From sequence record NC_049817.1: 51,277 nt of DNA; one strand, 5' to 3'. The translations under genes and the position numbers were made by a program. The notes beneath the pieces are model-generated. The model searched no databases and was not told the origin of the DNA. It saw only the letters and a program-made list of their open reading frames with translations. Numbering within the stretch: the first letter of the stretch is position 1; the number at the start of each line of letters is the position of its first letter. Shown here piece by piece: positions 1,160-20,778 of this stretch. The stretch comes from Escherichia phage tonnikala.

Positions 1160-3157
1160 ATGATTCCAAATATCGAAAAACAAATATCAGCGTTAGGCGA
1201 GGCAGTAATAAAAAGCATCCAAGAGCGATTCACGGTTGGCAATATAGTGCCTTATCCTTATCAGTGCGTTGCGTATGCCGAGATCGCAAAGCGCATGAAA
1301 AACTATGAGCATCCTTTCTTTGTTAAGGCTTCTGTGTCGGCTGGCAAAACATTGATGTTTGCGATGGTTGCTGCGCAATGCCGCAAAATGGGATTGAAAA
1401 TGATGGTCCTTGCTCGCCAGGCTGAAATTGTTGATCAGGATTCGGAAGAGATCAGCAATCTTGGCGTGCCAAACTCAATCTATTGCGCCGGACTGAAAAC
1501 AAAAAGCGCATACTTTCCGATCGTAGTCGGTTCTGAGGGCACTGTAGTAAACGGATTGTTTAAGTCGTTAGGTGATTATGTTCCGCACGTTATCGGTATT
1601 GATGAATGTCACCAGGTGGATTGGGAGGATCTCGCCGACGCGATAGAAAATAATGAATCTTACCAGCAGATGACCACTAAGAAGGATTTGCCTGTACTGA
1701 TTGGAGAAGAACAGCAATTTGATTCCAATGGCGATCCAATGTTCGGAACAGGGCGCACACAGTACACCGTAATAATCATGGAAATGATGCGCAGGTGTCG
1801 CGAGGCATACGGGCACGAATTGCGAATATTCGGTATGACTGGATCTGAGTTTCGCGGCGTGGTTCCAATACTGGTCGAAGATAAGAACAAAAAGGGATTC
1901 TGGCGTGAGCAGGTGACTAACATAGACACAAACTACTTAATCAAATTTGGTTCGGTAGTGCCAACAAATTTCGGCGACGTAGGCGACCTGGGGTATGACC
2001 TTTCAGAGTTCGAAGCCAGTAGCGAGGATGGCGTTTCAGACTTTGACGCTAAAACATTGCGCAAGATGGAAGAAAAAATCCATCAAGACGCAACAATGAC
2101 ACAGAAAATCATGGCTAAAGTCCATGAGATATGCAAAGACAGGAACGGAGTTTTAGTTACATGCGCAGGGGAAAGACATTGCAAGGAGGCCGCCGCCGCA
2201 CTGCCGCAAGGCGTTGAATACAGGATCATAACTGGCAAAACTGGAGATAATCAGCGTAAAGAGTGGCTGAGGGAGGCATACGAGGGGAAAGTAAAATACA
2301 TCTTCCAGGTACAGGCGCTTACCACTGGCGTTAACGTTCCGTTTTGGGATACTTCGGTAATACTGAGAAAGATAGGATCTCTAACATTGCTTATCCAGCT
2401 TTTGGGGCGCGGTATGCGACTGCTTAAGCAATGGCACATTGAGCAGGGATTCAAGAAAAAAGACCATCTTGTATTGGATTTTGCCGGTACTATGGATGAG
2501 TTAGGGGATTTGTATTTCGATCCAATCCTTGAGCAAGCGCAATTCCAAAAGAGATTTACAAACGGGAAAGAGCCTAAGACTTGTCCGATATGTGGAACGC
2601 TAAACAGCTTTTACGCTCGCCGATGTATGCACGTAGACGATAACGGGAAGAGATGCGAGCATTTTTGGACTTACAGAATTTGCGAGGACCAGGTAGATCC
2701 GAGAACGAAAAAGATAATCAAGCGCGGTTGCGGAACAAAAAACGACGTAGTGGCGAGAGTTTGCCGTTGTTGCGATATTTCTCTTGTCGATCCTAACGAG
2801 AAGTTAAGCGGTAAGCACTACACCAAAAACGATTGGTGCAACGTTAAATCTTTCCGCGTTGATATGACGAAAAACCAGAAAGGAATTGTTTTTTGCTATG
2901 AGCTTGAGGCCAACGGCGACACGTTCAAGGCATACGAAAGATTTTTCCCTGAGTCAGAAAGCAACATTTGCCGGACGATATGGAGAAAAATAGCATTGCA
3001 GCACATACCGGATCGCAAGATTGCTGGTATGGTGGCGAGCTATAGAAATGCGCGTAAAATAATGTCATACGCTCATCACATCATGCCTCCTGTACGCGTA
3101 ACGCATCGCAAAAACGGCAAAGGTGAGGATAACATTGCAAAACGGGAGTTTGTTTAA
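1160..3157 (+). CDS. SF2 DNA helicase with C-terminal zinc-finger region
   Basis: 665 aa; Walker A SAGKT, motif II GIDECHQ, C-terminal CPICG...C...C cysteine clusters. Confidence 0.8.
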   Translation: MIPNIEKQISALGEAVIKSIQERFTVGNIVPYPYQCVAYAEIAKRMKNYEHPFFVKASVSAGKTLMFAMVAAQCRKMGLKMMVLARQAEIVDQDSEEISNLGVPNSIYCAGLKTKSAYFPIVVGSEGTVVNGLFKSLGDYVPHVIGIDECHQVDWEDLADAIENNESYQQMTTKKDLPVLIGEEQQFDSNGDPMFGTGRTQYTVIIMEMMRRCREAYGHELRIFGMTGSEFRGVVPILVEDKNKKGFWREQVTNIDTNYLIKFGSVVPTNFGDVGDLGYDLSEFEASSEDGVSDFDAKTLRKMEEKIHQDATMTQKIMAKVHEICKDRNGVLVTCAGERHCKEAAAALPQGVEYRIITGKTGDNQRKEWLREAYEGKVKYIFQVQALTTGVNVPFWDTSVILRKIGSLTLLIQLLGRGMRLLKQWHIEQGFKKKDHLVLDFAGTMDELGDLYFDPILEQAQFQKRFTNGKEPKTCPICGTLNSFYARRCMHVDDNGKRCEHFWTYRICEDQVDPRTKKIIKRGCGTKNDVVARVCRCCDISLVDPNEKLSGKHYTKNDWCNVKSFRVDMTKNQKGIVFCYELEANGDTFKAYERFFPESESNICRTIWRKIALQHIPDRKIAGMVASYRNARKIMSYAHHIMPPVRVTHRKNGKGEDNIAKREFV

Positions 3158-3576
3158 TGGCTATAACTGATAAAGGCGATTATCTTGAGTTTTACGAAAG
3201 GGATCCAACCGACACGAGAAGGGAAGTTAATCACCAGATAGATAGTTTTCAGTGGTTGACTTATGCTCATCCTTATTTGCTGGCGTGGCATACGGTAAAC
3301 GAGAATGAGAAGTCTAAAGTAACGGCGATGATTGATCAGCAGTCCGGCTTGGTTAAGGGAGTAAGCGATTTCATCATCCTGATTGGTTTAAACGGAAAAT
3401 ACCCCTTTGCAGCGATTGAGATCAAACGAGTGAATAAATCAGGCAAGGGGAAAGCATCACCAGTCAGCGATGAACAAAAGGCTTTTTTGCGTCGCGTTCG
3501 CAGCTTAGGAGGATTCGCTGCGGTAGCCTACGGATTCAATCAGTTTAAGTTGGCTATTGAATACATGCTTAAATAG
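3157..3576 (+). CDS. VRR-NUC domain nuclease (PD-(D/E)XK fold)
   Basis: 139 aa; D...EIK core (DFIILIG...AAIEIKR); start overlaps helicase stop (TAATG). Confidence 0.6.
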   Translation: MAITDKGDYLEFYERDPTDTRREVNHQIDSFQWLTYAHPYLLAWHTVNENEKSKVTAMIDQQSGLVKGVSDFIILIGLNGKYPFAAIEIKRVNKSGKGKASPVSDEQKAFLRRVRSLGGFAAVAYGFNQFKLAIEYMLK

Positions 3577-3592
3577 CACTTTTTGTTAAAAC
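3574..3592 (+). promoter_or_regulatory. conserved intergenic motif copy TAGCACTTTTTGTTAAAAC
   Basis: TAG of motif is the stop codon of the VRR-NUC gene; GC hairpin and CATAAT follow 18 nt downstream. Confidence 0.45.
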
Positions 3593-3656
3593 TGGCGCGA
3601 TGGATTGCGCCATAATTCAATAACACGAGATGGCTTTTAATAGCGGAGAAATGAAA

Positions 3657-4382
3657 ATGGCTAAAGATATTTTAGATAAAGACACCCATGACGCATTCGT
3701 TAGCTTTGAGCAGTTGGAGAGAGAAACGTTTATAGGGAATGCCCTTGCAACTGGAGGCCATTACCAGGCAGTAAAGCCAAATCAATATTATAAGGTAAGC
3801 GGAAACCGATACGCTGGAAGCACTACGCCGGACGTTGTGCGCGATATGTGGAGTACGCCTCAAGAGATCGTGGAGTGGATGGAATCAGAATTTGGTGAAT
3901 ACGATCTCGACGCGGCAGCAAGCCAGGAAAACGCAGTTTGCGAGAAGTTCTATAGCAAGGAGACAAACTGCTTAAAGCGGTGGTGGGGTAGCAACAAGCA
4001 CGTATGGCTTAACCCGCCGTACAGCAACCCAACTCCATTTATCAAGAAAGCAATTGAGCAAATGGAGCACAACAACCAAATTGATGTTTTGTTGCCAGCA
4101 GACAACTCTACAGCATGGTTTTATGAGGCGCAAAAAAACGCGGCTGAAATCATCTGGATCACTGGCGAGGTTTACGAAGAGGGTGGAGTAGAATACTCCC
4201 GCACCGGAAGAATCGCCTTTGTGTCTGGATTGACTGGCGAGCCTGTGCAGGGCAACAATAAGGGAAGCGTGATTTTTGTCATGCGCAAACTTAAAGAAGG
4301 CGAGGAGCAGAAAACGCGATACGTTAAGATCAGCGATATTTGCCCTTCTGTAACCGAACGCCGCGCTCGCAAACGGAGCTAA
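3657..4382 (+). CDS. DNA N6-adenine methyltransferase (phage Dam family)
   Basis: Catalytic NPPY motif (HVWLNPPYSN); RBS GGAG 8 nt before ATG at 3657 (track ORF starts at 3630). Confidence 0.8.
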   Translation: MAKDILDKDTHDAFVSFEQLERETFIGNALATGGHYQAVKPNQYYKVSGNRYAGSTTPDVVRDMWSTPQEIVEWMESEFGEYDLDAAASQENAVCEKFYSKETNCLKRWWGSNKHVWLNPPYSNPTPFIKKAIEQMEHNNQIDVLLPADNSTAWFYEAQKNAAEIIWITGEVYEEGGVEYSRTGRIAFVSGLTGEPVQGNNKGSVIFVMRKLKEGEEQKTRYVKISDICPSVTERRARKRS

Positions 4383-4899: not shown

Positions 4900-5131
4900 G
4901 CAAGGAAGAGATGCGGTATGGAATCACGCTAAAGAATGCGGTATTGCCGACGATATAAAGAAGATCGCGCAATACTTTGATATTGCAGATGTGAGCATAA
5001 TTAGCGGCGACAAGATGACTTTCCTCAAGGAAAGGCCGCGAAAAATGGTAAGAGTTCCAGCAGTTCCAACAAAAATTGATTTCAAAGAGGCAATGGCTAA
5101 AATCCGAGAGCCTCGCAAATATTATAAATGA
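4889..5131 (+). CDS. hypothetical protein
   Basis: In-frame ATG (MKVEQGRD) with GGAGG upstream; shorter than the track ORF starting at 4841. Confidence 0.4.
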   Translation: MKVEQGRDAVWNHAKECGIADDIKKIAQYFDIADVSIISGDKMTFLKERPRKMVRVPAVPTKIDFKEAMAKIREPRKYYK

Positions 5132-5225
5132 GGATAGTTATCATGTGGCGCTTGTTTGTTCTACCGTTACCCGTTATCATCGCTGTTACAGTTATGTACC
5201 ATATAGTGATGAGATAGGTAGCAGA

Positions 5226-6341
5226 ATGAAAAATGTAAAAATTACAGATGAGCAATTCAAGATCGAACGGGCGGCAGGTAAGACATATAAACAGATCGCT
5301 CAAGAGTACGGAATGAATGTTAGAAGCGTCGAGCGTCGCGCGGCGCGTCTTGCAAAGCAAGGACAGTTATCGACCATCGGAGCGCCTAGTTTTGGTGTTC
5401 ATGGTGAGTCAGTAATGACTGACAAAGAAGGAAATATAATCCTCAAGTGGACCAAAACCAGCAAGGATAAAGAGCAATTAGAGGCATTGATGCGCGCAGC
5501 TATGGAGGCGTTTAGCGAGGAAGTGCCGCGATTAGATCCAGTTCCATTGCAGGAGCGTAATTATAATGAAACGCTTTCATTGTATCCGATCTTTGACATG
5601 CACTTAGGCGCTATGGCCCATAAGCACGAATGCGGCGAAAATTGGGATACTGCGACGGCAGAGCGCGTTATGAATAACTTTATCGACTATGCTTTGATGT
5701 GCGCACCGGACAGCGAAAAGGCTGTTATCCTGATTGGTGGCGATATGCTGCATAGCGACGGCCTGGAGGCGGTGACACCTGCAAGCGGTCACGTACTTGA
5801 TCAAGATAGCCGATATGCAAAATTGGTTTACGTTGCAATCCGTGCAATGCGTCGCGCAATTAATAAAATGCTGTTAAAGCATAAACATGTTGAGGTCCAG
5901 ATCGTAGAGGGGAATCACGACCAATCAGGAATGATTTGGCTACGCGCAGCAATGGCGGCAGCATATGAGAACGAGCCGCGCGTTTACGTTGATGTTTCTC
6001 CTCGCGTTGTTCACCACACGCAATACGGAAAAACTTTCCTTGCGTACCATCACGGGCACACAGTGCGTAAACCGGAGACTTTGCTAATGATGTGCGCGTC
6101 AGATTGGCGGGAGGACTTCGGAAACTCAAAAACGATGTATGCGCACGTAGGGCACTGGCATCACCAGACCGTGACGGAAACGTCGCTTGGGATCGTGGAG
6201 GTACATAGCACCCTGGCAGCAAAAGACGCATACGCCGCGCGAGGTGGCTGGAGATCTCGACGCCGTGCGGCGGTTATCATTTACGACAAAGAGCATGGAG
6301 AAGTCGGGCGATTTGTTCACTATCCAGAAATGATGAGTTGA
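5226..6341 (+). CDS. calcineurin-like metallophosphoesterase with N-terminal sigma-70 region-4-like HTH
   Basis: Phosphoesterase motifs D-x-H (FDMHLG), GGD (IGGDMLHSD), GNHD (VEGNHDQ), HHGH, GHWHH; N-terminal TYKQIAQEYGMNVRSVERRAARL. Confidence 0.65.
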   Translation: MKNVKITDEQFKIERAAGKTYKQIAQEYGMNVRSVERRAARLAKQGQLSTIGAPSFGVHGESVMTDKEGNIILKWTKTSKDKEQLEALMRAAMEAFSEEVPRLDPVPLQERNYNETLSLYPIFDMHLGAMAHKHECGENWDTATAERVMNNFIDYALMCAPDSEKAVILIGGDMLHSDGLEAVTPASGHVLDQDSRYAKLVYVAIRAMRRAINKMLLKHKHVEVQIVEGNHDQSGMIWLRAAMAAAYENEPRVYVDVSPRVVHHTQYGKTFLAYHHGHTVRKPETLLMMCASDWREDFGNSKTMYAHVGHWHHQTVTETSLGIVEVHSTLAAKDAYAARGGWRSRRRAAVIIYDKEHGEVGRFVHYPEMMS

Positions 6342-6390
6342 TGAATTTTTATTTAAATCAATGACAAATTAAATCAAAAACTTGCAAAGG

Positions 6391-6417
6391 GGCGGCGTTT
6401 GTCGCCTCTTTTTTTTG
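6391..6417 (+). terminator. weak terminator-like hairpin with long T-run
   Basis: Short GGCG/CGCC stem followed by about 10 T residues after the phosphoesterase gene. Confidence 0.3.
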
Positions 6418-6486
6418 TTTAATTTTTTACCATGTGCGTTTATCATGCGGTCAATATATTGACTTTAATTAATATGGAGAATAAAA

Positions 6487-7596: not shown

Positions 7597-7779
7597 TTAT
7601 TCGATACGCTTTACAGTAACCAACAAAACGCCGTCTTCATCACACAAATTATGCTCTGATATATCAAACGCTCGCATGTCAGAATGAATGAGCGTTAACA
7701 TTGCGTGCATGAAGTCGTCATGTGAGATTTGAGAAGTGGCGCAAAATTTAAGAATTTCATCTATCAGTTTACTTTCCAT
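7597..7779 (-). CDS. hypothetical small protein
   Basis: Minus ORF; start trimmed to internal ATG (MESKL...) to reduce overlap with HNH gene; no good RBS seen. Confidence 0.3.
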   Translation of the reverse strand: MESKLIDEILKFCATSQISHDDFMHAMLTLIHSDMRAFDISEHNLCDEDGVLLVTVKRIE

Positions 7780-8242
7780 GATTTTTGTGGTAGCCAAATT
7801 TAACCTCCGCCTGTTCCCTTGCCTTAATTGCATCATCAAGACTTAAAAAATATCCTAAATGCACGCTCTTACCGTTATCATATATAGTTGCGTGCCATCT
7901 TTTGTTTTTCTTATTCCAGCAAACACCAACTCGACCAGAGTTATTTCTTTTTAGTAGAGATACGTTTTTGCTGTTATCTAATCTTGATGCAAGCCTTAGA
8001 TTTTCAATTCTGTTATCGCTCCTATTGTGCCATATATGGTCTATTTCCATTCCTTCTGGTATTTTTCCATTGTGCATTTCCCATATTATCCTATGCGCCA
8101 AAAACAATACACCATTATACCTTATTCTCACATATCCATTTTCACATACACATCCCGCAACGCTTCCAGGCTTTGCTTTCCCTCTTCTGTTTCTCCATCT
8201 CAATATTCCATTGTCATATATAAATACTTCATTCCAATCCAT
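7769..8242 (-). CDS. HNH homing endonuclease with AP2-like DNA-binding domain
   Basis: 157 aa; HNH core EIDHIWHNRSDNRIENLR; C-terminal AP2-like segment; gene lies in a visibly AT-rich stretch. Confidence 0.75.
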   Translation of the reverse strand: MDWNEVFIYDNGILRWRNRRGKAKPGSVAGCVCENGYVRIRYNGVLFLAHRIIWEMHNGKIPEGMEIDHIWHNRSDNRIENLRLASRLDNSKNVSLLKRNNSGRVGVCWNKKNKRWHATIYDNGKSVHLGYFLSLDDAIKAREQAEVKFGYHKNHGK

Positions 8243-18113: not shown

Positions 18114-18551
18114 ATGTACATTAAAAAGAAGATGAAATGCGTTTCCGTTAACTATGCTTGCTCTGGCATGTTCAAGCCTGGCGAAATCTATACGGCGCAA
18201 AAACTGAAAACATCAACCGGATCTTTTTACGTGAGCAATAGTAAGGGGCATCGCATGTTCCTGAACGGCGGCGAAGGCACTAAGGTTATGGCACACGCTA
18301 TGGTAATGGCTGAATTTGAGGAAGTGAAAGATGAAAACAATAAGCGCGTCAAGCACAGGTTTACTGATAACCACGGCGACGCGATTGATGTATACAAGTT
18401 CGGCGATCGCGTGTTTATTGATGGCACGTTTGAATGTGGGCGTAGGCCGGATTTTAGGTCGATACTTACCGTTGACCAAGTGCGCAAGCTGGCAGATAAG
18501 TTAAATGATCTGGCAGATGAAATAGAATACAAACAAATCCATTTTAATTGA
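18114..18551 (+). CDS. hypothetical protein
   Basis: Start set at MYIKKKMK with AGGAG RBS; 145 aa. Confidence 0.5.
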   Translation: MYIKKKMKCVSVNYACSGMFKPGEIYTAQKLKTSTGSFYVSNSKGHRMFLNGGEGTKVMAHAMVMAEFEEVKDENNKRVKHRFTDNHGDAIDVYKFGDRVFIDGTFECGRRPDFRSILTVDQVRKLADKLNDLADEIEYKQIHFN

Positions 18552-18562
18552 TAGGTTTGATA

Positions 18563-19273
18563 ATGAAAAAATACACTTTCGAACTGTGGGGCAAGAAGTA
18601 CGAATTAATCACCAGCAAGCCGATTGTTATCGTTGACCTGGACGGAACACTATCGGACGGATCGCATCGTTTGCATTTGCTGCCAACTGAAAACTTGCAC
18701 CTTACGGAATCGTGGCGCGAGTTTAACAGGGCCGCCGCCGGAGATTCACCGATTAAAAGCACTATCGCGGTTATTAACGGTTTATGGGTGTCGGGATTTG
18801 CCATCGTCATCTTGACCGGACGCAGCGACGAGGTTCGCTATGAAACCTGCAAATGGTTGAATGAGAACGGCGTGAAGTTTGACGAAATCATCATGCGCCG
18901 CCAGGAGGACAACCGAAAGGATACGGTTATTAAAGAAGAAGCCTTGCGCGCTATTGGCCTGGACAACATTGTTTGCGCCTTTGACGATTCGCCGAACGTG
19001 GTTAAGCACTTCCGCAGCTTGGGGATCACAACCTATCAGGTCACGGAATACGACAAGCCACACGCTCACATACAATCTCACGGCGTGGAATCAATAAAGA
19101 TCACGAAGCGCGCCCTATTCGTCGGCAGCAAAGACAGCCTGGTCAATGCCAGCTTTATCAAAGGCAAGGTTTATGATGTTCATAGCCATGATAAAAACCG
19201 ATTCTTTTTGTGGGATGAAAAAGGTTTTGGCTGGTGCTTTGAACACGACGACGGCGATTTTGTTAATGCGTAA
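18563..19273 (+). CDS. HAD-superfamily phosphatase, polynucleotide 3'-phosphatase-like
   Basis: HAD motif I VIVDLDGTLSD, motif II ILTGRSD, motif III K...AFDDS; extra C-terminal domain of about 70 aa. Confidence 0.6.
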   Translation: MKKYTFELWGKKYELITSKPIVIVDLDGTLSDGSHRLHLLPTENLHLTESWREFNRAAAGDSPIKSTIAVINGLWVSGFAIVILTGRSDEVRYETCKWLNENGVKFDEIIMRRQEDNRKDTVIKEEALRAIGLDNIVCAFDDSPNVVKHFRSLGITTYQVTEYDKPHAHIQSHGVESIKITKRALFVGSKDSLVNASFIKGKVYDVHSHDKNRFFLWDEKGFGWCFEHDDGDFVNA

Positions 19274-20187: not shown

Positions 20188-20778
20188 ATGAAACGAGACA
20201 TTATCATCCTTAATGGGCCTCCAGGTTGCGGGAAGGACACTATTGCAGCTTACCTAACAGGCCATCGTTACCCAGCGGTCAAGGCGTCATTCAAACAGCC
20301 GATGTTCGATATTGCGTTTTCCATGCTGGGCGTGTACCGATACGATGAATTTATGGACCTGTACAACGACCGAGAACAAAAAGAAAAGCCTCAAGTTATT
20401 TTGGGCGGCAAGTCACCTCGACAATTCATGATCTGGATTAGCGAGGATGTAATGAAGCCAGTTTTTGGAGATCACTATTTCGGGCGTCGAATGGTTGAAG
20501 AGATTCACGAGATGTACCGAGATTTGGCGGTTGTGATCAGTGATGGCGGATTCCCCGAAGAAATCAAGCCGCTCGTTAAGGCTGGGCATGAGTTGCATAT
20601 TTGCCGATTGCATCGCGACGGATTCACGTTTGCTGGCGATTCGAGAGACTATATTGACCTGAGCGGTTATCACTATCGAATCCATCACTATGATTTCCAC
20701 TTGCAGGACGGCAAGCCTGAACTGGCTGTAAACGAGATCGTCAATGCAGTCAAATGGAAGCACACACAGATTAAATAG
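20188..20778 (+). CDS. P-loop nucleotide kinase, deoxynucleoside monophosphate kinase-like
   Basis: Walker A ILNGPPGCGKDT at N-terminus; overall layout resembles phage dNMP kinases. Confidence 0.55.
   Translation: MKRDIIILNGPPGCGKDTIAAYLTGHRYPAVKASFKQPMFDIAFSMLGVYRYDEFMDLYNDREQKEKPQVILGGKSPRQFMIWISEDVMKPVFGDHYFGRRMVEEIHEMYRDLAVVISDGGFPEEIKPLVKAGHELHICRLHRDGFTFAGDSRDYIDLSGYHYRIHHYDFHLQDGKPELAVNEIVNAVKWKHTQIK

What the first reader, a model, noticed from the sequence alone, without database searches (positions are those of the whole stretch)
5226..6341. Fusion of a sigma-like HTH to a calcineurin-type metallophosphoesterase
The N-terminal 40 residues look like a sigma-70 region-4 / LuxR-type helix-turn-helix and the remainder has the full set of metallophosphoesterase motifs. 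The gene sits between the methyltransferase and the lysis cassette. A DNA-binding phosphatase or nuclease could act in replication or repair, or as a phosphatase regulator of host proteins.
Basis: partly seen in the sequence, partly recalled or inferred. Interest (0 to 1): 0.5.

Follow-up and report, generated by a model that had tools for sequence, protein, structure and literature searches.

The report
Phage HTH-tethered metallophosphoesterase, probable DNA nuclease
This is the standard, already catalogued "DNA repair exonuclease / putative phosphoesterase" core gene of T1-like coliphages: a small DNA-binding-type helix-turn-helix joined to a metal-dependent phosphoesterase that most resembles DNA nucleases, real and conserved but never characterised biochemically.

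Summary
Window 5226..6341 (+) encodes a 371-aa protein. It has an N-terminal three-helix LuxR/sigma-region-4-like HTH (residues ~8-46), a conserved beta-hairpin plus helix (58-97), and a metallophosphoesterase (MPE) core (114-371) with all five catalytic motifs invariant across 141 distant relatives.

It is not a new fusion. The window is a Warwickvirus (Drexlerviridae, T1-like) phage, and the protein is 99% identical to annotated proteins. It matches PHROG 704 over its full length. About 2,040 phage records and about 4,600 50%-identity clusters carry relatives, nearly all with the same N-terminal region.

"Calcineurin-type" is true only at superfamily level. The closest folds are nuclease-type MPEs (PolD DP1, SbcD, Mre11); protein phosphatases score far lower. 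The protein has no capping domain and the phage has no Rad50/SbcC partner, so it is not an Mre11/SbcD orthologue.

The gene ends the helicase / VRR-NUC / Dam operon, with a terminator before the lysis genes. In other phages it sits next to a Pnkp-type 3'-phosphatase, a dNMP-kinase-like P-loop protein, DNA ligase or DnaB.

Best reading: an HTH-tethered, Mn-dependent DNA nuclease or phosphodiesterase in phage DNA metabolism, possibly host-DNA breakdown as shown for T5 A1 and mycobacteriophage gp48. The biochemistry is inferred. Interest is low to moderate.

The parts
5226..6341 (+). CDS of the HTH-MPE protein (371 aa, stop included)
   Evidence: ORF and sequence. PHROG 704, E 3.4e-148, full length. 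98-99% nucleotide identity to the annotated genes of phages tiwna, atuna and Kalemo.
5226..5363 (+). N-terminal three-helix HTH domain (residues 1-46; helices 8-16, 21-27, 32-46), LuxR/GerE / sigma-70 region-4-like
   Evidence: Pfam Sigma70_r4_2 17-41, E 0.0018, below threshold. Family-wide HTH hits. GerE/RhlR/DesR are the best profile matches in the PDB. AF2 pLDDT about 95. Purifying selection.
5364..5564 (+). Flexible linker (residues 47-57), then a conserved beta-hairpin (58-78; G69 and W75 nearly invariant) and a helix (82-97) leading into the core
   Evidence: AF2 secondary structure, with low pLDDT at 48-52. Conservation.
5565..6338 (+). Metallophosphoesterase core (residues 114-371). 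Motif I D124/H126 (5595-5603); motif II G172-D173..H176 (5739-5753); motif III G229-N230-H231-D232 (5910-5921); motif IV H276-G-H278 (6051-6059); motif V G309-H310-x-H312 (6150-6161)
6386..6421 (+). Intrinsic-terminator-like hairpin (11-bp stem, 6 G-C pairs) plus T-run, 45 nt after the stop codon. It ends the helicase / VRR-NUC / Dam / MPE transcription unit before the lysis cassette
   Evidence: Consensus scan and sequence. Function inferred.
1160..4382 (+). Upstream genes on the same strand: helicase (1160..3157), VRR-NUC nuclease (3157..3576), Dam methyltransferase (3630..4382). This is the operon context
   Evidence: ORFs. Pfam VRR_NUC and Dam. tiwna annotation.
18548..19273 (+). Possible functional partner encoded elsewhere in this genome: HAD_PNKP-type polynucleotide 3'-phosphatase. 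The partnership is inferred only from adjacency in other phages
   Evidence: Pfam HAD_PNKP, E 7.8e-21. PDB matches to T4 Pnkp and Pnkp1, E about 1e-5. Adjacent to the MPE gene in K1H, Yersinia 574, L034, L062 and L080.
20188..20778 (+). Possible functional partner encoded elsewhere in this genome: P-loop kinase of the dNMP-kinase PHROG. The partnership is inferred only from adjacency in other phages
   Evidence: PHROG 139, E 4e-51. Second gene after the MPE gene in 5 lineages.

Best explanation
The gene encodes a catalytically competent binuclear-metal (probably Mn2+) phosphodiesterase whose core is closest to nuclease-type MPEs (PolD DP1, SbcD/Mre11). It carries an N-terminal LuxR/sigma-region-4-like HTH on a flexible linker.

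Proposed mechanism. The HTH holds the enzyme on duplex DNA. The recognition helix is basic (R33, R37, R38, R41, K44) and varies between phages. The MPE site then hydrolyses DNA phosphodiester bonds at ends or nicks. It works without a Rad50-type ATPase.

Proposed role. It is transcribed as the last gene of the phage's helicase / VRR-NUC / Dam DNA-metabolism operon. It acts either in processing DNA ends during recombination-dependent replication, or in breaking down host DNA to feed nucleotide salvage. The salvage idea fits the neighbouring 3'-phosphatase and dNMP-kinase-like genes in related phages.

Shown here: the domain architecture, intact and invariant catalytic motifs, purifying selection on both domains, structural neighbours, operon position, and recurrent DNA/nucleotide-metabolism neighbours.

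Inferred: DNA binding by the HTH, DNA as the substrate, the metal, and the biological role.
For: - Catalytic motifs I-V are invariant in 141 relatives.
- The AF2 model is confident: pLDDT 93, pTM 0.81.
- Motif II is GDxxH with H176 at least 90% conserved. From my own knowledge, not tested here, this is the Mre11 form.
- Context:
  - terminator after the gene;
  - same-strand helicase, VRR-NUC and Dam upstream;
  - MPE followed by HAD_PNKP then a P-loop kinase in several lineages, plus an ATP-dependent DNA ligase in L080;
  - ligase followed by MPE in Campylobacter phage PC5;
  - between an HTH_36 initiator-like protein and a DnaB helicase in a prophage-like lineage;
  - after a gene annotated in its own record as putative thymidylate synthase complementing protein, next to putative dCMP-deaminase and dATP/dGTP-pyrophosphohydrolase genes, in an N4-like roseophage.
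- PMC13164509 independently reports the exonuclease / polynucleotide kinase / dNMP kinase adjacency, and persistence in 508 of 522 Drexlerviridae.
- Two other stand-alone phage MPEs have experimental support for degrading host DNA: T5 A1 (bioRxiv 10.64898/2026.04.02.716235) and mycobacteriophage A10ZJ24 gp48 (PMC12287305).
Against: - No biochemical or genetic data exist for this family in the literature I could search.
- There is no sequence-level match to any solved nuclease. Profile matches to SbcD and P. putida nuclease MPE are only E about 1.5.
- The relationship to T5 A1 is not demonstrable beyond motif III: hhalign probability 21.6%.
- In this phage the 3'-phosphatase and kinase genes are 13-15 kb away, so the synteny argument is indirect.
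- The phage already encodes an exonuclease VIII-like nuclease, Erf and VRR-NUC, so a further nuclease role is not obviously required.
Confidence: 0.5

Rival explanations
1. Nucleic-acid end-healing phosphoesterase. The MPE removes 2',3'-cyclic phosphate, 3'-phosphate or other blocking groups from broken DNA or RNA. It would work with the phage Pnkp-type 3'-phosphatase, a kinase and a ligase, like the MPE domain of bacterial Pnkp or the MPE/PdeM of ligase-associated repair clusters. The purpose would be to repair damage inflicted by host defences.
For: Direct adjacency to HAD_PNKP, a P-loop kinase and (in L080) an ATP-dependent DNA ligase. Ligase followed by MPE in PC5. The HAD protein matches T4 Pnkp and Pnkp1. 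Weak hits to PdeM (TIGR04123, E 0.0033) and to P. putida nuclease MPE (E 1.6).
Against: A dedicated HAD 3'-phosphatase is already present, so the function would be redundant. The P-loop protein falls in the dNMP-kinase PHROG rather than a polynucleotide-kinase one. Most genomes, including this one, encode no ligase. The PdeM and MPE hits are far below threshold. The structural neighbours are nucleases, not lambda-phosphatase-like enzymes.
Confidence: 0.17
2. Anti-defence or signalling phosphodiesterase. The MPE degrades cyclic (oligo)nucleotide immune signals (CBASS, Pycsar, type III CRISPR) or cAMP, as class III cNMP phosphodiesterases do.
Against: A DNA-binding-type HTH is conserved and under selection. 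The gene is a persistent core gene in a fixed DNA-metabolism position, rather than a variable accessory locus. Neighbours are replication and nucleotide genes. There are no PADLOC-related hits.
Confidence: 0.08
3. Protein Ser/Thr/Tyr phosphatase of the calcineurin / lambda-phosphatase kind that reprogrammes host proteins (one of the first reader's options).
For: It belongs to the same superfamily. Lambda encodes such an enzyme, NinI (my own knowledge). Pfam Metallophos is the only catalytic-domain hit.
Confidence: 0.04
4. Primarily a transcription regulator. The sigma-region-4/LuxR-like HTH would control middle or late (for example lysis) gene expression, and the MPE domain would act as a sensor or accessory module.
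For: The HTH class is typical of transcription factors. The gene lies immediately upstream of the lysis cassette in 508 of 522 Drexlerviridae and near lysis genes in Vibrio, Yersinia and Rhizobium phages. T5 A1 is reported to associate with RNA polymerase.
Against: All catalytic residues are invariant, so catalysis is the selected function. The MPE core evolves more slowly than the HTH. About 3% of representatives lack the HTH but keep the core (PC5). In Kagunavirus and Jerseyvirus the gene is not next to lysis genes.
Confidence: 0.06

Closest known systems
Mre11 / SbcD nucleases (MPE nuclease subunit of Mre11-Rad50 / SbcCD)
   Different: No capping domain, because the protein ends with the core. 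No Rad50/SbcC partner gene in the genome. It carries an N-terminal HTH and hairpin instead. There is no significant sequence match.
PolD small subunit DP1 (3'-5' proofreading exonuclease) and the B-subunits of eukaryotic polymerases
   Different: No OB fold and no DP2 polymerase partner. T1-like phages encode no DNA polymerase at all.
Phage T5 A1 (putative metallophosphatase, reported as necessary and sufficient for host DNA degradation)
   Same: A stand-alone phage MPE with an N-terminal extension. The authors describe it as structurally similar to DSB-repair nucleases and polymerase proofreading subunits, the same neighbours found here. Motif III and its extension look alike: ESNHDLALSRWL in A1 against the family consensus EGNHDxxSSxWL.
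   Different: A1 is 556 aa with a different N-terminal region of about 290 aa. hhalign probability is only 21.6%, so specific homology is not shown. A1 is a pre-early gene, whereas this gene sits at the end of a replication operon.
Mycobacteriophage A10ZJ24 gp48 (cluster A MPE; DNase that disrupts the host genome; PMC12287305)
   Same: A phage-encoded MPE with five motifs. It has demonstrated phosphodiesterase and DNase activity, and toxicity that depends on the motif residues. It is a precedent for the proposed chemistry.
   Different: It is much shorter and has no HTH (motif residues D10, D41, H175). It was not recovered as a homologue in my searches. It belongs to a different phage and host group.
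LuxR/GerE and sigma-70 region 4 HTH domains
   Same: Helix pattern and sequence signature. The family consensus is T..Q..vL.a....G s...AA..LGvs..tV...l.r. Best profile matches are GerE, RhlR, DesR and sigma-H region 4. Pfam GerE and Sigma70_r4_2 hit relatives at 1e-8 to 1e-9.
   Different: In this protein the hits fall below threshold. There is no receiver or autoinducer domain and no other sigma regions. The HTH is attached to an enzyme rather than a regulatory domain.

Membership tests
Metallophosphoesterase (calcineurin-like) superfamily | Five motifs: DxH, GD, GNH[D/E], H, GHxH | tested here: met
   D124-x-H126, G172-D173, G229-N230-H231-D232, H276, G309-H310-x-H312. The metal and catalytic residues are invariant in 141 relatives.
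Metallophosphoesterase (calcineurin-like) superfamily | Two-layer beta-sandwich MPE fold | tested here: met
Metallophosphoesterase (calcineurin-like) superfamily | Pfam PF00149 gathering score | tested here: not met
   16.8 bits against a cut-off of 21.5. Only 27 of 116 relatives hit at E <= 0.01. This is a divergent branch, so superfamily membership rests on motifs and fold.
PHROG 704 (phage 'DNA repair exonuclease') | Full-length profile match | tested here: met
   E 3.4e-148; residues 5-370 against profile positions 3-389 of 390.
Mre11/SbcD | Nuclease-type MPE core with His three residues after the motif II Asp | tested here: met
Mre11/SbcD | C-terminal capping domain and Rad50-binding region | tested here: not met
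   The protein ends at residue 371 with core strands. Only about 185-190 residues align to Mre11/SbcD chains of 319-476 residues.
Mre11/SbcD | Adjacent or co-encoded Rad50/SbcC ATPase | tested here: not met
   No such gene in the tiwna annotation, which covers the same genome type, nor among window ORFs of at least 100 aa. None among neighbours in 23 lineages.
Mre11/SbcD | Mn2+-dependent exo/endonuclease activity | not testable with these tools
   Requires purified protein.
PPP protein phosphatases (calcineurin, lambda phosphatase) | GDxHG / GDxVDRG / GNHE motifs and PPP-like fold details | tested here: not met
PolD DP1 / polymerase B-subunit | OB fold preceding the MPE, and a DP2 or catalytic-subunit partner | tested here: not met
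   The region before the core is an HTH, a hairpin and one helix. There is no polymerase gene in the genome.
LuxR/GerE / sigma-70 region 4 HTH | Helical bundle with an HTH and the sequence signature | tested here: inconclusive
   This protein scores below threshold: 18.3 bits against 25.7. Relatives reach E 1.5e-9 (Sigma70_r4_2) and 2.4e-8 (GerE). Profile against PDB sequences gives GerE at E 0.02. Three helices are predicted. HTH class is supported; the exact subfamily is not fixed.
LuxR/GerE / sigma-70 region 4 HTH | Sequence-specific DNA binding | not testable with these tools
   Needs EMSA or ChIP.
T5 A1-type host-DNA-degrading MPE | Specific homology to A1 | tested here: inconclusive
   hhalign probability 21.6%, with only motif III aligned. 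A1 itself has no Pfam hit.
Known anti-phage defence proteins (PADLOC) | Match to any PADLOC model | tested here: not met
   0 families at E <= 1.

The most novel reading that the evidence does not exclude
This HTH-MPE family would be the long-unidentified Rad50-independent DNase with which T1-like and many other phages attack or recycle the host chromosome. Its variable HTH would supply targeting or self/non-self discrimination (for example steering the nuclease away from, or onto, particular DNA). It would be functionally convergent with T5 A1 and mycobacteriophage gp48, and coupled to the phage 3'-phosphatase and dNMP-kinase for nucleotide salvage.
Probability: 0.2. Interest if true: 0.5.

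Novelty: already known. Interest (0 to 1): 0.27.

Why it matters
The gene is one of the most persistent uncharacterised genes of T1-like phages. Relatives occur in about 2,000 sequenced phages and thousands of metagenomic clusters. Its usual label, "DNA repair exonuclease", is an untested transfer from Mre11/SbcD, whose defining partner and capping domain it lacks.

If it proves to be an HTH-guided, Rad50-independent DNase, it would add a third and much more widespread case to the recent T5 A1 and mycobacteriophage gp48 findings that stand-alone phage MPEs dismantle host DNA. It would also explain the link to the phage Pnkp-phosphatase and dNMP-kinase genes.

For this genome scan the practical message is that the finding is a correctly read but ordinary, already catalogued gene.

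Tried and rejected
- Sequence search of the PDB with the single protein gave only a chance hit, CD109 at E 1.8.
- PADLOC gave no hits. NCBIfam gave only far-sub-threshold hits: PdeM, ECF sigma, IS630.
- Fold search against AFDB50 was unavailable on the machine.
- The search for related loci with the 116-sequence alignment failed because no stretch was conserved enough. It worked with a 12-sequence alignment.
- Literature searches for functional data on the T1-like protein found only genome descriptions. The search for classical T1 genetics (host DNA degradation, gene 2.5) returned nothing, so I did not assign the gene to any classical T1 locus.
- A Lamassu paper that mentions T1 and "phosphoesterase" turned out to be irrelevant. 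The PUA-Cal-HAD paper concerns a host defence MPE, not this family.
- The test for specific homology to T5 A1 was inconclusive. I ran no further search on an A1 profile, because any two MPE profiles would match and the result would not discriminate.
- The RefSeq-style upstream GTG start (window 5145) was considered and rejected.
- A link to the lysis cassette was considered and rejected as the primary context, because of the terminator and the non-lysis neighbourhoods elsewhere.

Full report
**What the window is.** The 1,116-bp region is 98-99% identical to the corresponding gene of Escherichia phages tiwna, atuna, Sip, Kalemo and others. Tiwna is classified as Drexlerviridae; Tempevirinae; Warwickvirus. 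The window is therefore a T1-like coliphage genome. In those records the gene is annotated "DNA repair exonuclease", "putative phosphoesterase" or "hypothetical protein".

**Check of the observation.**
- The ORF runs from ATG 5226 to TGA 6339-6341 and encodes 371 aa.
- A longer frame is open back to TTG 5076, and RefSeq tiwna starts at a GTG equal to window 5145. Distant orthologues (K1H, 46% identity; SH2, 60%) nevertheless align from residue 1.
- In SH2, U136B and Klebsiella phage K50_evo4 the upstream frame contains stop codons.
- The five metallophosphoesterase (MPE) motifs can be read directly: D124-M-H126, G172-D173-M-L-H176, G229-N230-H231-D232, H276-G-H278, G309-H310-W-H312.
- In an alignment of 141 cluster representatives sharing only 30-55% identity with the query, D124, H126, D173, T184, N230, H231, H276, G277 and H312 are invariant. 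G172, H176, D178, D192, R196, D232, H278, H310, D334 and others are at least 90% conserved. The active site is intact and under strong selection.

**The HTH.**
- On this sequence alone Pfam gives only sub-threshold hits: Sigma70_r4_2 at residues 17-41 (E 0.0018), plus HTH_28 and HTH_23.
- Scanning 116 relatives one by one, the N-termini hit HTH_1 (23 members), HTH_8/Fis (14), HTH_50 (12), Sigma70_r4_2 (11, best 1.5e-9), HTH_23 (11) and GerE (5, best 2.4e-8).
- A profile of the family searched against all PDB sequences finds GerE, RhlR, DesR and sigma-H region 4 as its best matches. All are weak (E 0.02-1) and all fall on the N-terminal 60 positions.
- AlphaFold2 with the 141-sequence alignment gives mean pLDDT 93 and pTM 0.81. 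It predicts helices 8-16, 21-27 and 32-46, a low-confidence linker (48-52), a beta-hairpin 58-78, a helix 82-97, and the core from residue 114.
- All 141 aligned relatives have at least 66 residues before the hairpin tryptophan (W75). Only 5 of 149 representatives are short enough to lack the N-terminal region. The Campylobacter phage PC5 homologue (320 aa) is a natural HTH-less form.
- Against relatives with saturated synonymous sites (pS 0.72-0.99), the HTH codons show pN 0.09-0.37 and the core shows 0.06-0.29. The HTH is therefore a real, selected domain and the ancestral state of the family, not a recent fusion.

**Size and status of the family.**
- PHROG 704 ("DNA repair exonuclease") matches over the full length at E 3.4e-148.
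- tblastn finds relatives in 2,040 phage records from Escherichia, Klebsiella, Salmonella, Vibrio, Campylobacter, Flavobacterium, Rhodobacter, Rhizobium and other hosts.
- An exhaustive HMMER scan of 1.84 billion representatives finds 4,611 clusters at E <= 1e-3 and 1,046 at E <= 1e-30.
- I found no paper that tests the protein's activity.

**Which kind of MPE.**
- Next come S. aureus SbcD (14.6) and T. maritima Mre11 (14.5). Archaeal, fungal and human Mre11 score 13.3-12.8, with up to 20% identity to P. furiosus Mre11 bound to DNA.
- Small generic phosphodiesterases are close behind: MJ0936 14.1, LpxH 13.4, YfcE 12.6, GpdQ 12.4, Rv0805 12.3.
- Protein phosphatases (PP5, calcineurin) score only about 9. 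Foldseek agrees: Mre11-DNA, DP1, GpdQ and Rv0805 all sit near E 4e-7.
- Motif II has the form GDxxH. From my own knowledge, this is the Mre11 form, not the GDxVDRG of protein phosphatases.
- The protein is nevertheless not an Mre11/SbcD orthologue. It ends with the catalytic core and has no capping domain. No Rad50/SbcC gene exists in the genome or beside the gene in any of 23 lineages examined. It also has no OB fold or polymerase partner, so it is not a DP1.
- "Calcineurin-type" is thus correct only as a superfamily name.

**Genomic context.**
- In the window the gene is the last of a same-strand series: helicase (1160..3157), VRR-NUC (3157..3576), Dam (3630..4382), three small ORFs, a 24-codon micro-ORF, then the MPE gene.
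- An 11-bp-stem hairpin with a T-run follows at 6386-6411, before the holin gene. The order is the same in Tunavirus SH2, Tlsvirus U136B and a Klebsiella relative.
- I collected 88 loci falling into 23 lineages (at 70% identity of the MPE protein) and clustered their neighbouring genes. The recurrent same-strand neighbours were as follows.
  - A 162-aa protein sits immediately downstream. It is a HAD_PNKP-type polynucleotide 3'-phosphatase: Pfam 58.7-75.1 bits against a cut-off of 27.6, with PDB matches to T4 Pnkp and Pnkp1.
  - A P-loop kinase of about 190 aa follows it. It belongs to the dNMP-kinase PHROG 139.
  - This arrangement is seen in Kagunavirus, a Klebsiella T1-like group, Yersinia phage 574 and metagenomic locus L080. 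In L080 an ATP-dependent DNA ligase comes next.
- Other contexts:
  - In Campylobacter phage PC5 the gene follows a DNA ligase.
  - In a prophage-like lineage it lies between an HTH_36 initiator-like protein and a DnaB helicase.
  - In an N4-like roseophage it follows a gene annotated in its own record as putative thymidylate synthase complementing protein. Putative dCMP-deaminase and dATP/dGTP-pyrophosphohydrolase genes lie upstream.
  - In Jerseyvirus and Vibrio phages an HNH endonuclease follows it.
- PMC13164509 independently notes the polynucleotide-kinase and dNMP-kinase neighbours.
- In the window itself these two genes are present but distant, at 18548..19273 and 20188..20778.
- Every informative context involves DNA replication, repair or nucleotide metabolism.

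**Mechanism.**
- I commit to an HTH-tethered, Rad50-independent, divalent-metal-dependent DNA nuclease or phosphodiesterase acting in phage DNA metabolism (confidence about 0.5).
- Two roles are compatible with the data. One is processing of DNA ends during the recombination-dependent replication that T1-like phages carry out with their exonuclease VIII-like, Erf and SSB genes.
- The other is breakdown of host DNA to feed salvage through the 3'-phosphatase and dNMP kinase.
- The second role has recent precedents in other stand-alone phage MPEs.
  - T5 A1 is described as a putative metallophosphatase structurally similar to DSB-repair nucleases and polymerase proofreading subunits. It is reported to be necessary and sufficient for host DNA degradation (bioRxiv 10.64898/2026.04.02.716235).
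  - Mycobacteriophage A10ZJ24 gp48 has demonstrated phosphodiesterase and DNase activity and disrupts the host genome (PMC12287305).
- Specific homology to A1 could not be shown. hhalign probability is 21.6% and only motif III with its "S.WL" extension aligns. These proteins are therefore analogues for mechanism, not evidence of family membership.
- The rivals are an end-healing phosphoesterase, a cyclic-nucleotide phosphodiesterase, a protein phosphatase and a transcription regulator. They are listed with their evidence in the rival-explanations section. None is excluded by computation alone.

**Verdict.**
The nuclease option is the best supported.
- The object is an ordinary, already catalogued core gene of T1-like phages, and the "fusion" is its normal architecture.
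- What remains unknown is the biochemistry.
- I score novelty as "already known" (catalogued and annotated, though uncharacterised) and interest at about 0.27.

Noticed in passing
window 5143..5217 (+): A conserved micro-ORF lies directly upstream of the MPE gene and is not annotated in RefSeq tiwna. It encodes MWRLFVLPLPVIIAVTVMYHIVMR* (24 aa, hydrophobic, probably a single transmembrane helix) and has a GAGGA ribosome-binding site at 5130-5134. Orthologous peptides occupy the same position in SH2 (MKLYFAVVLTPLISFSVMYFIIM*), U136B (MRYISVILLPPVIAWVIMYAVVMN*) and Klebsiella phage K50_evo4, where a 29-aa version is annotated. Conservation at peptide level despite diverged DNA suggests a real small membrane protein.
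   Followed up: partly
window 5145..5225 (+); L001 5920..6000: RefSeq tiwna (YP_010064939.1) starts the MPE gene 81 nt too early, at a GTG. That extension overlaps the micro-ORF in another frame. It is not conserved: the frame has stops in SH2, U136B and K50_evo4.
   Followed up: yes
window 7769..8242 (-): An HNH_3 + AP2-domain homing-endonuclease-like ORF (157 aa; Pfam HNH_3, E 8e-22) lies between the spanin gene and the YdbL-like gene. No corresponding CDS is annotated at this place in phage tiwna, so it looks like a mobile insertion that distinguishes this genome.
   Followed up: partly
window 18548..19273 (+) and 20188..20778 (+): The phage carries a "split Pnkp": a stand-alone HAD_PNKP 3'-phosphatase and a separate P-loop kinase of the dNMP-kinase PHROG. 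Here they are about 1 kb apart in the early region. In several other phage lineages they are adjacent to each other and to the MPE gene.
   Followed up: partly
phage records: phiJLA23 (H60), Salmonella phage 36, Jk06 JK_64P, Klebsiella KpV79, Shigella 2019SD1 (P0080): In several phages the MPE gene appears fragmented into N- and C-terminal pieces (PHROGs 20703 and 20762; BFVD hits of 98-258 aa). In Jerseyvirus and Vibrio phages an HNH endonuclease gene sits immediately downstream. This suggests that homing endonucleases, introns or assembly errors target this conserved gene.
   Followed up: no
L080 7159..9270; L012 2646..4954: A metagenomic phage locus (L080) has MPE, HAD_PNKP 3'-phosphatase, P-loop kinase and ATP-dependent DNA ligase as four consecutive same-strand genes. 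Campylobacter phage PC5 has ligase followed by MPE. Together these would form a compact putative end-processing and sealing module.
   Followed up: partly
MG065680.1 and 14 other 'Campylobacter phage' records (H23): Fifteen records named Campylobacter phage (for example A113, 49.9 kb) carry a T1-like MPE gene that is 85% identical at protein level to this E. coli phage. They look like Drexlerviridae and may be mislabelled or contaminant isolates.
   Followed up: no
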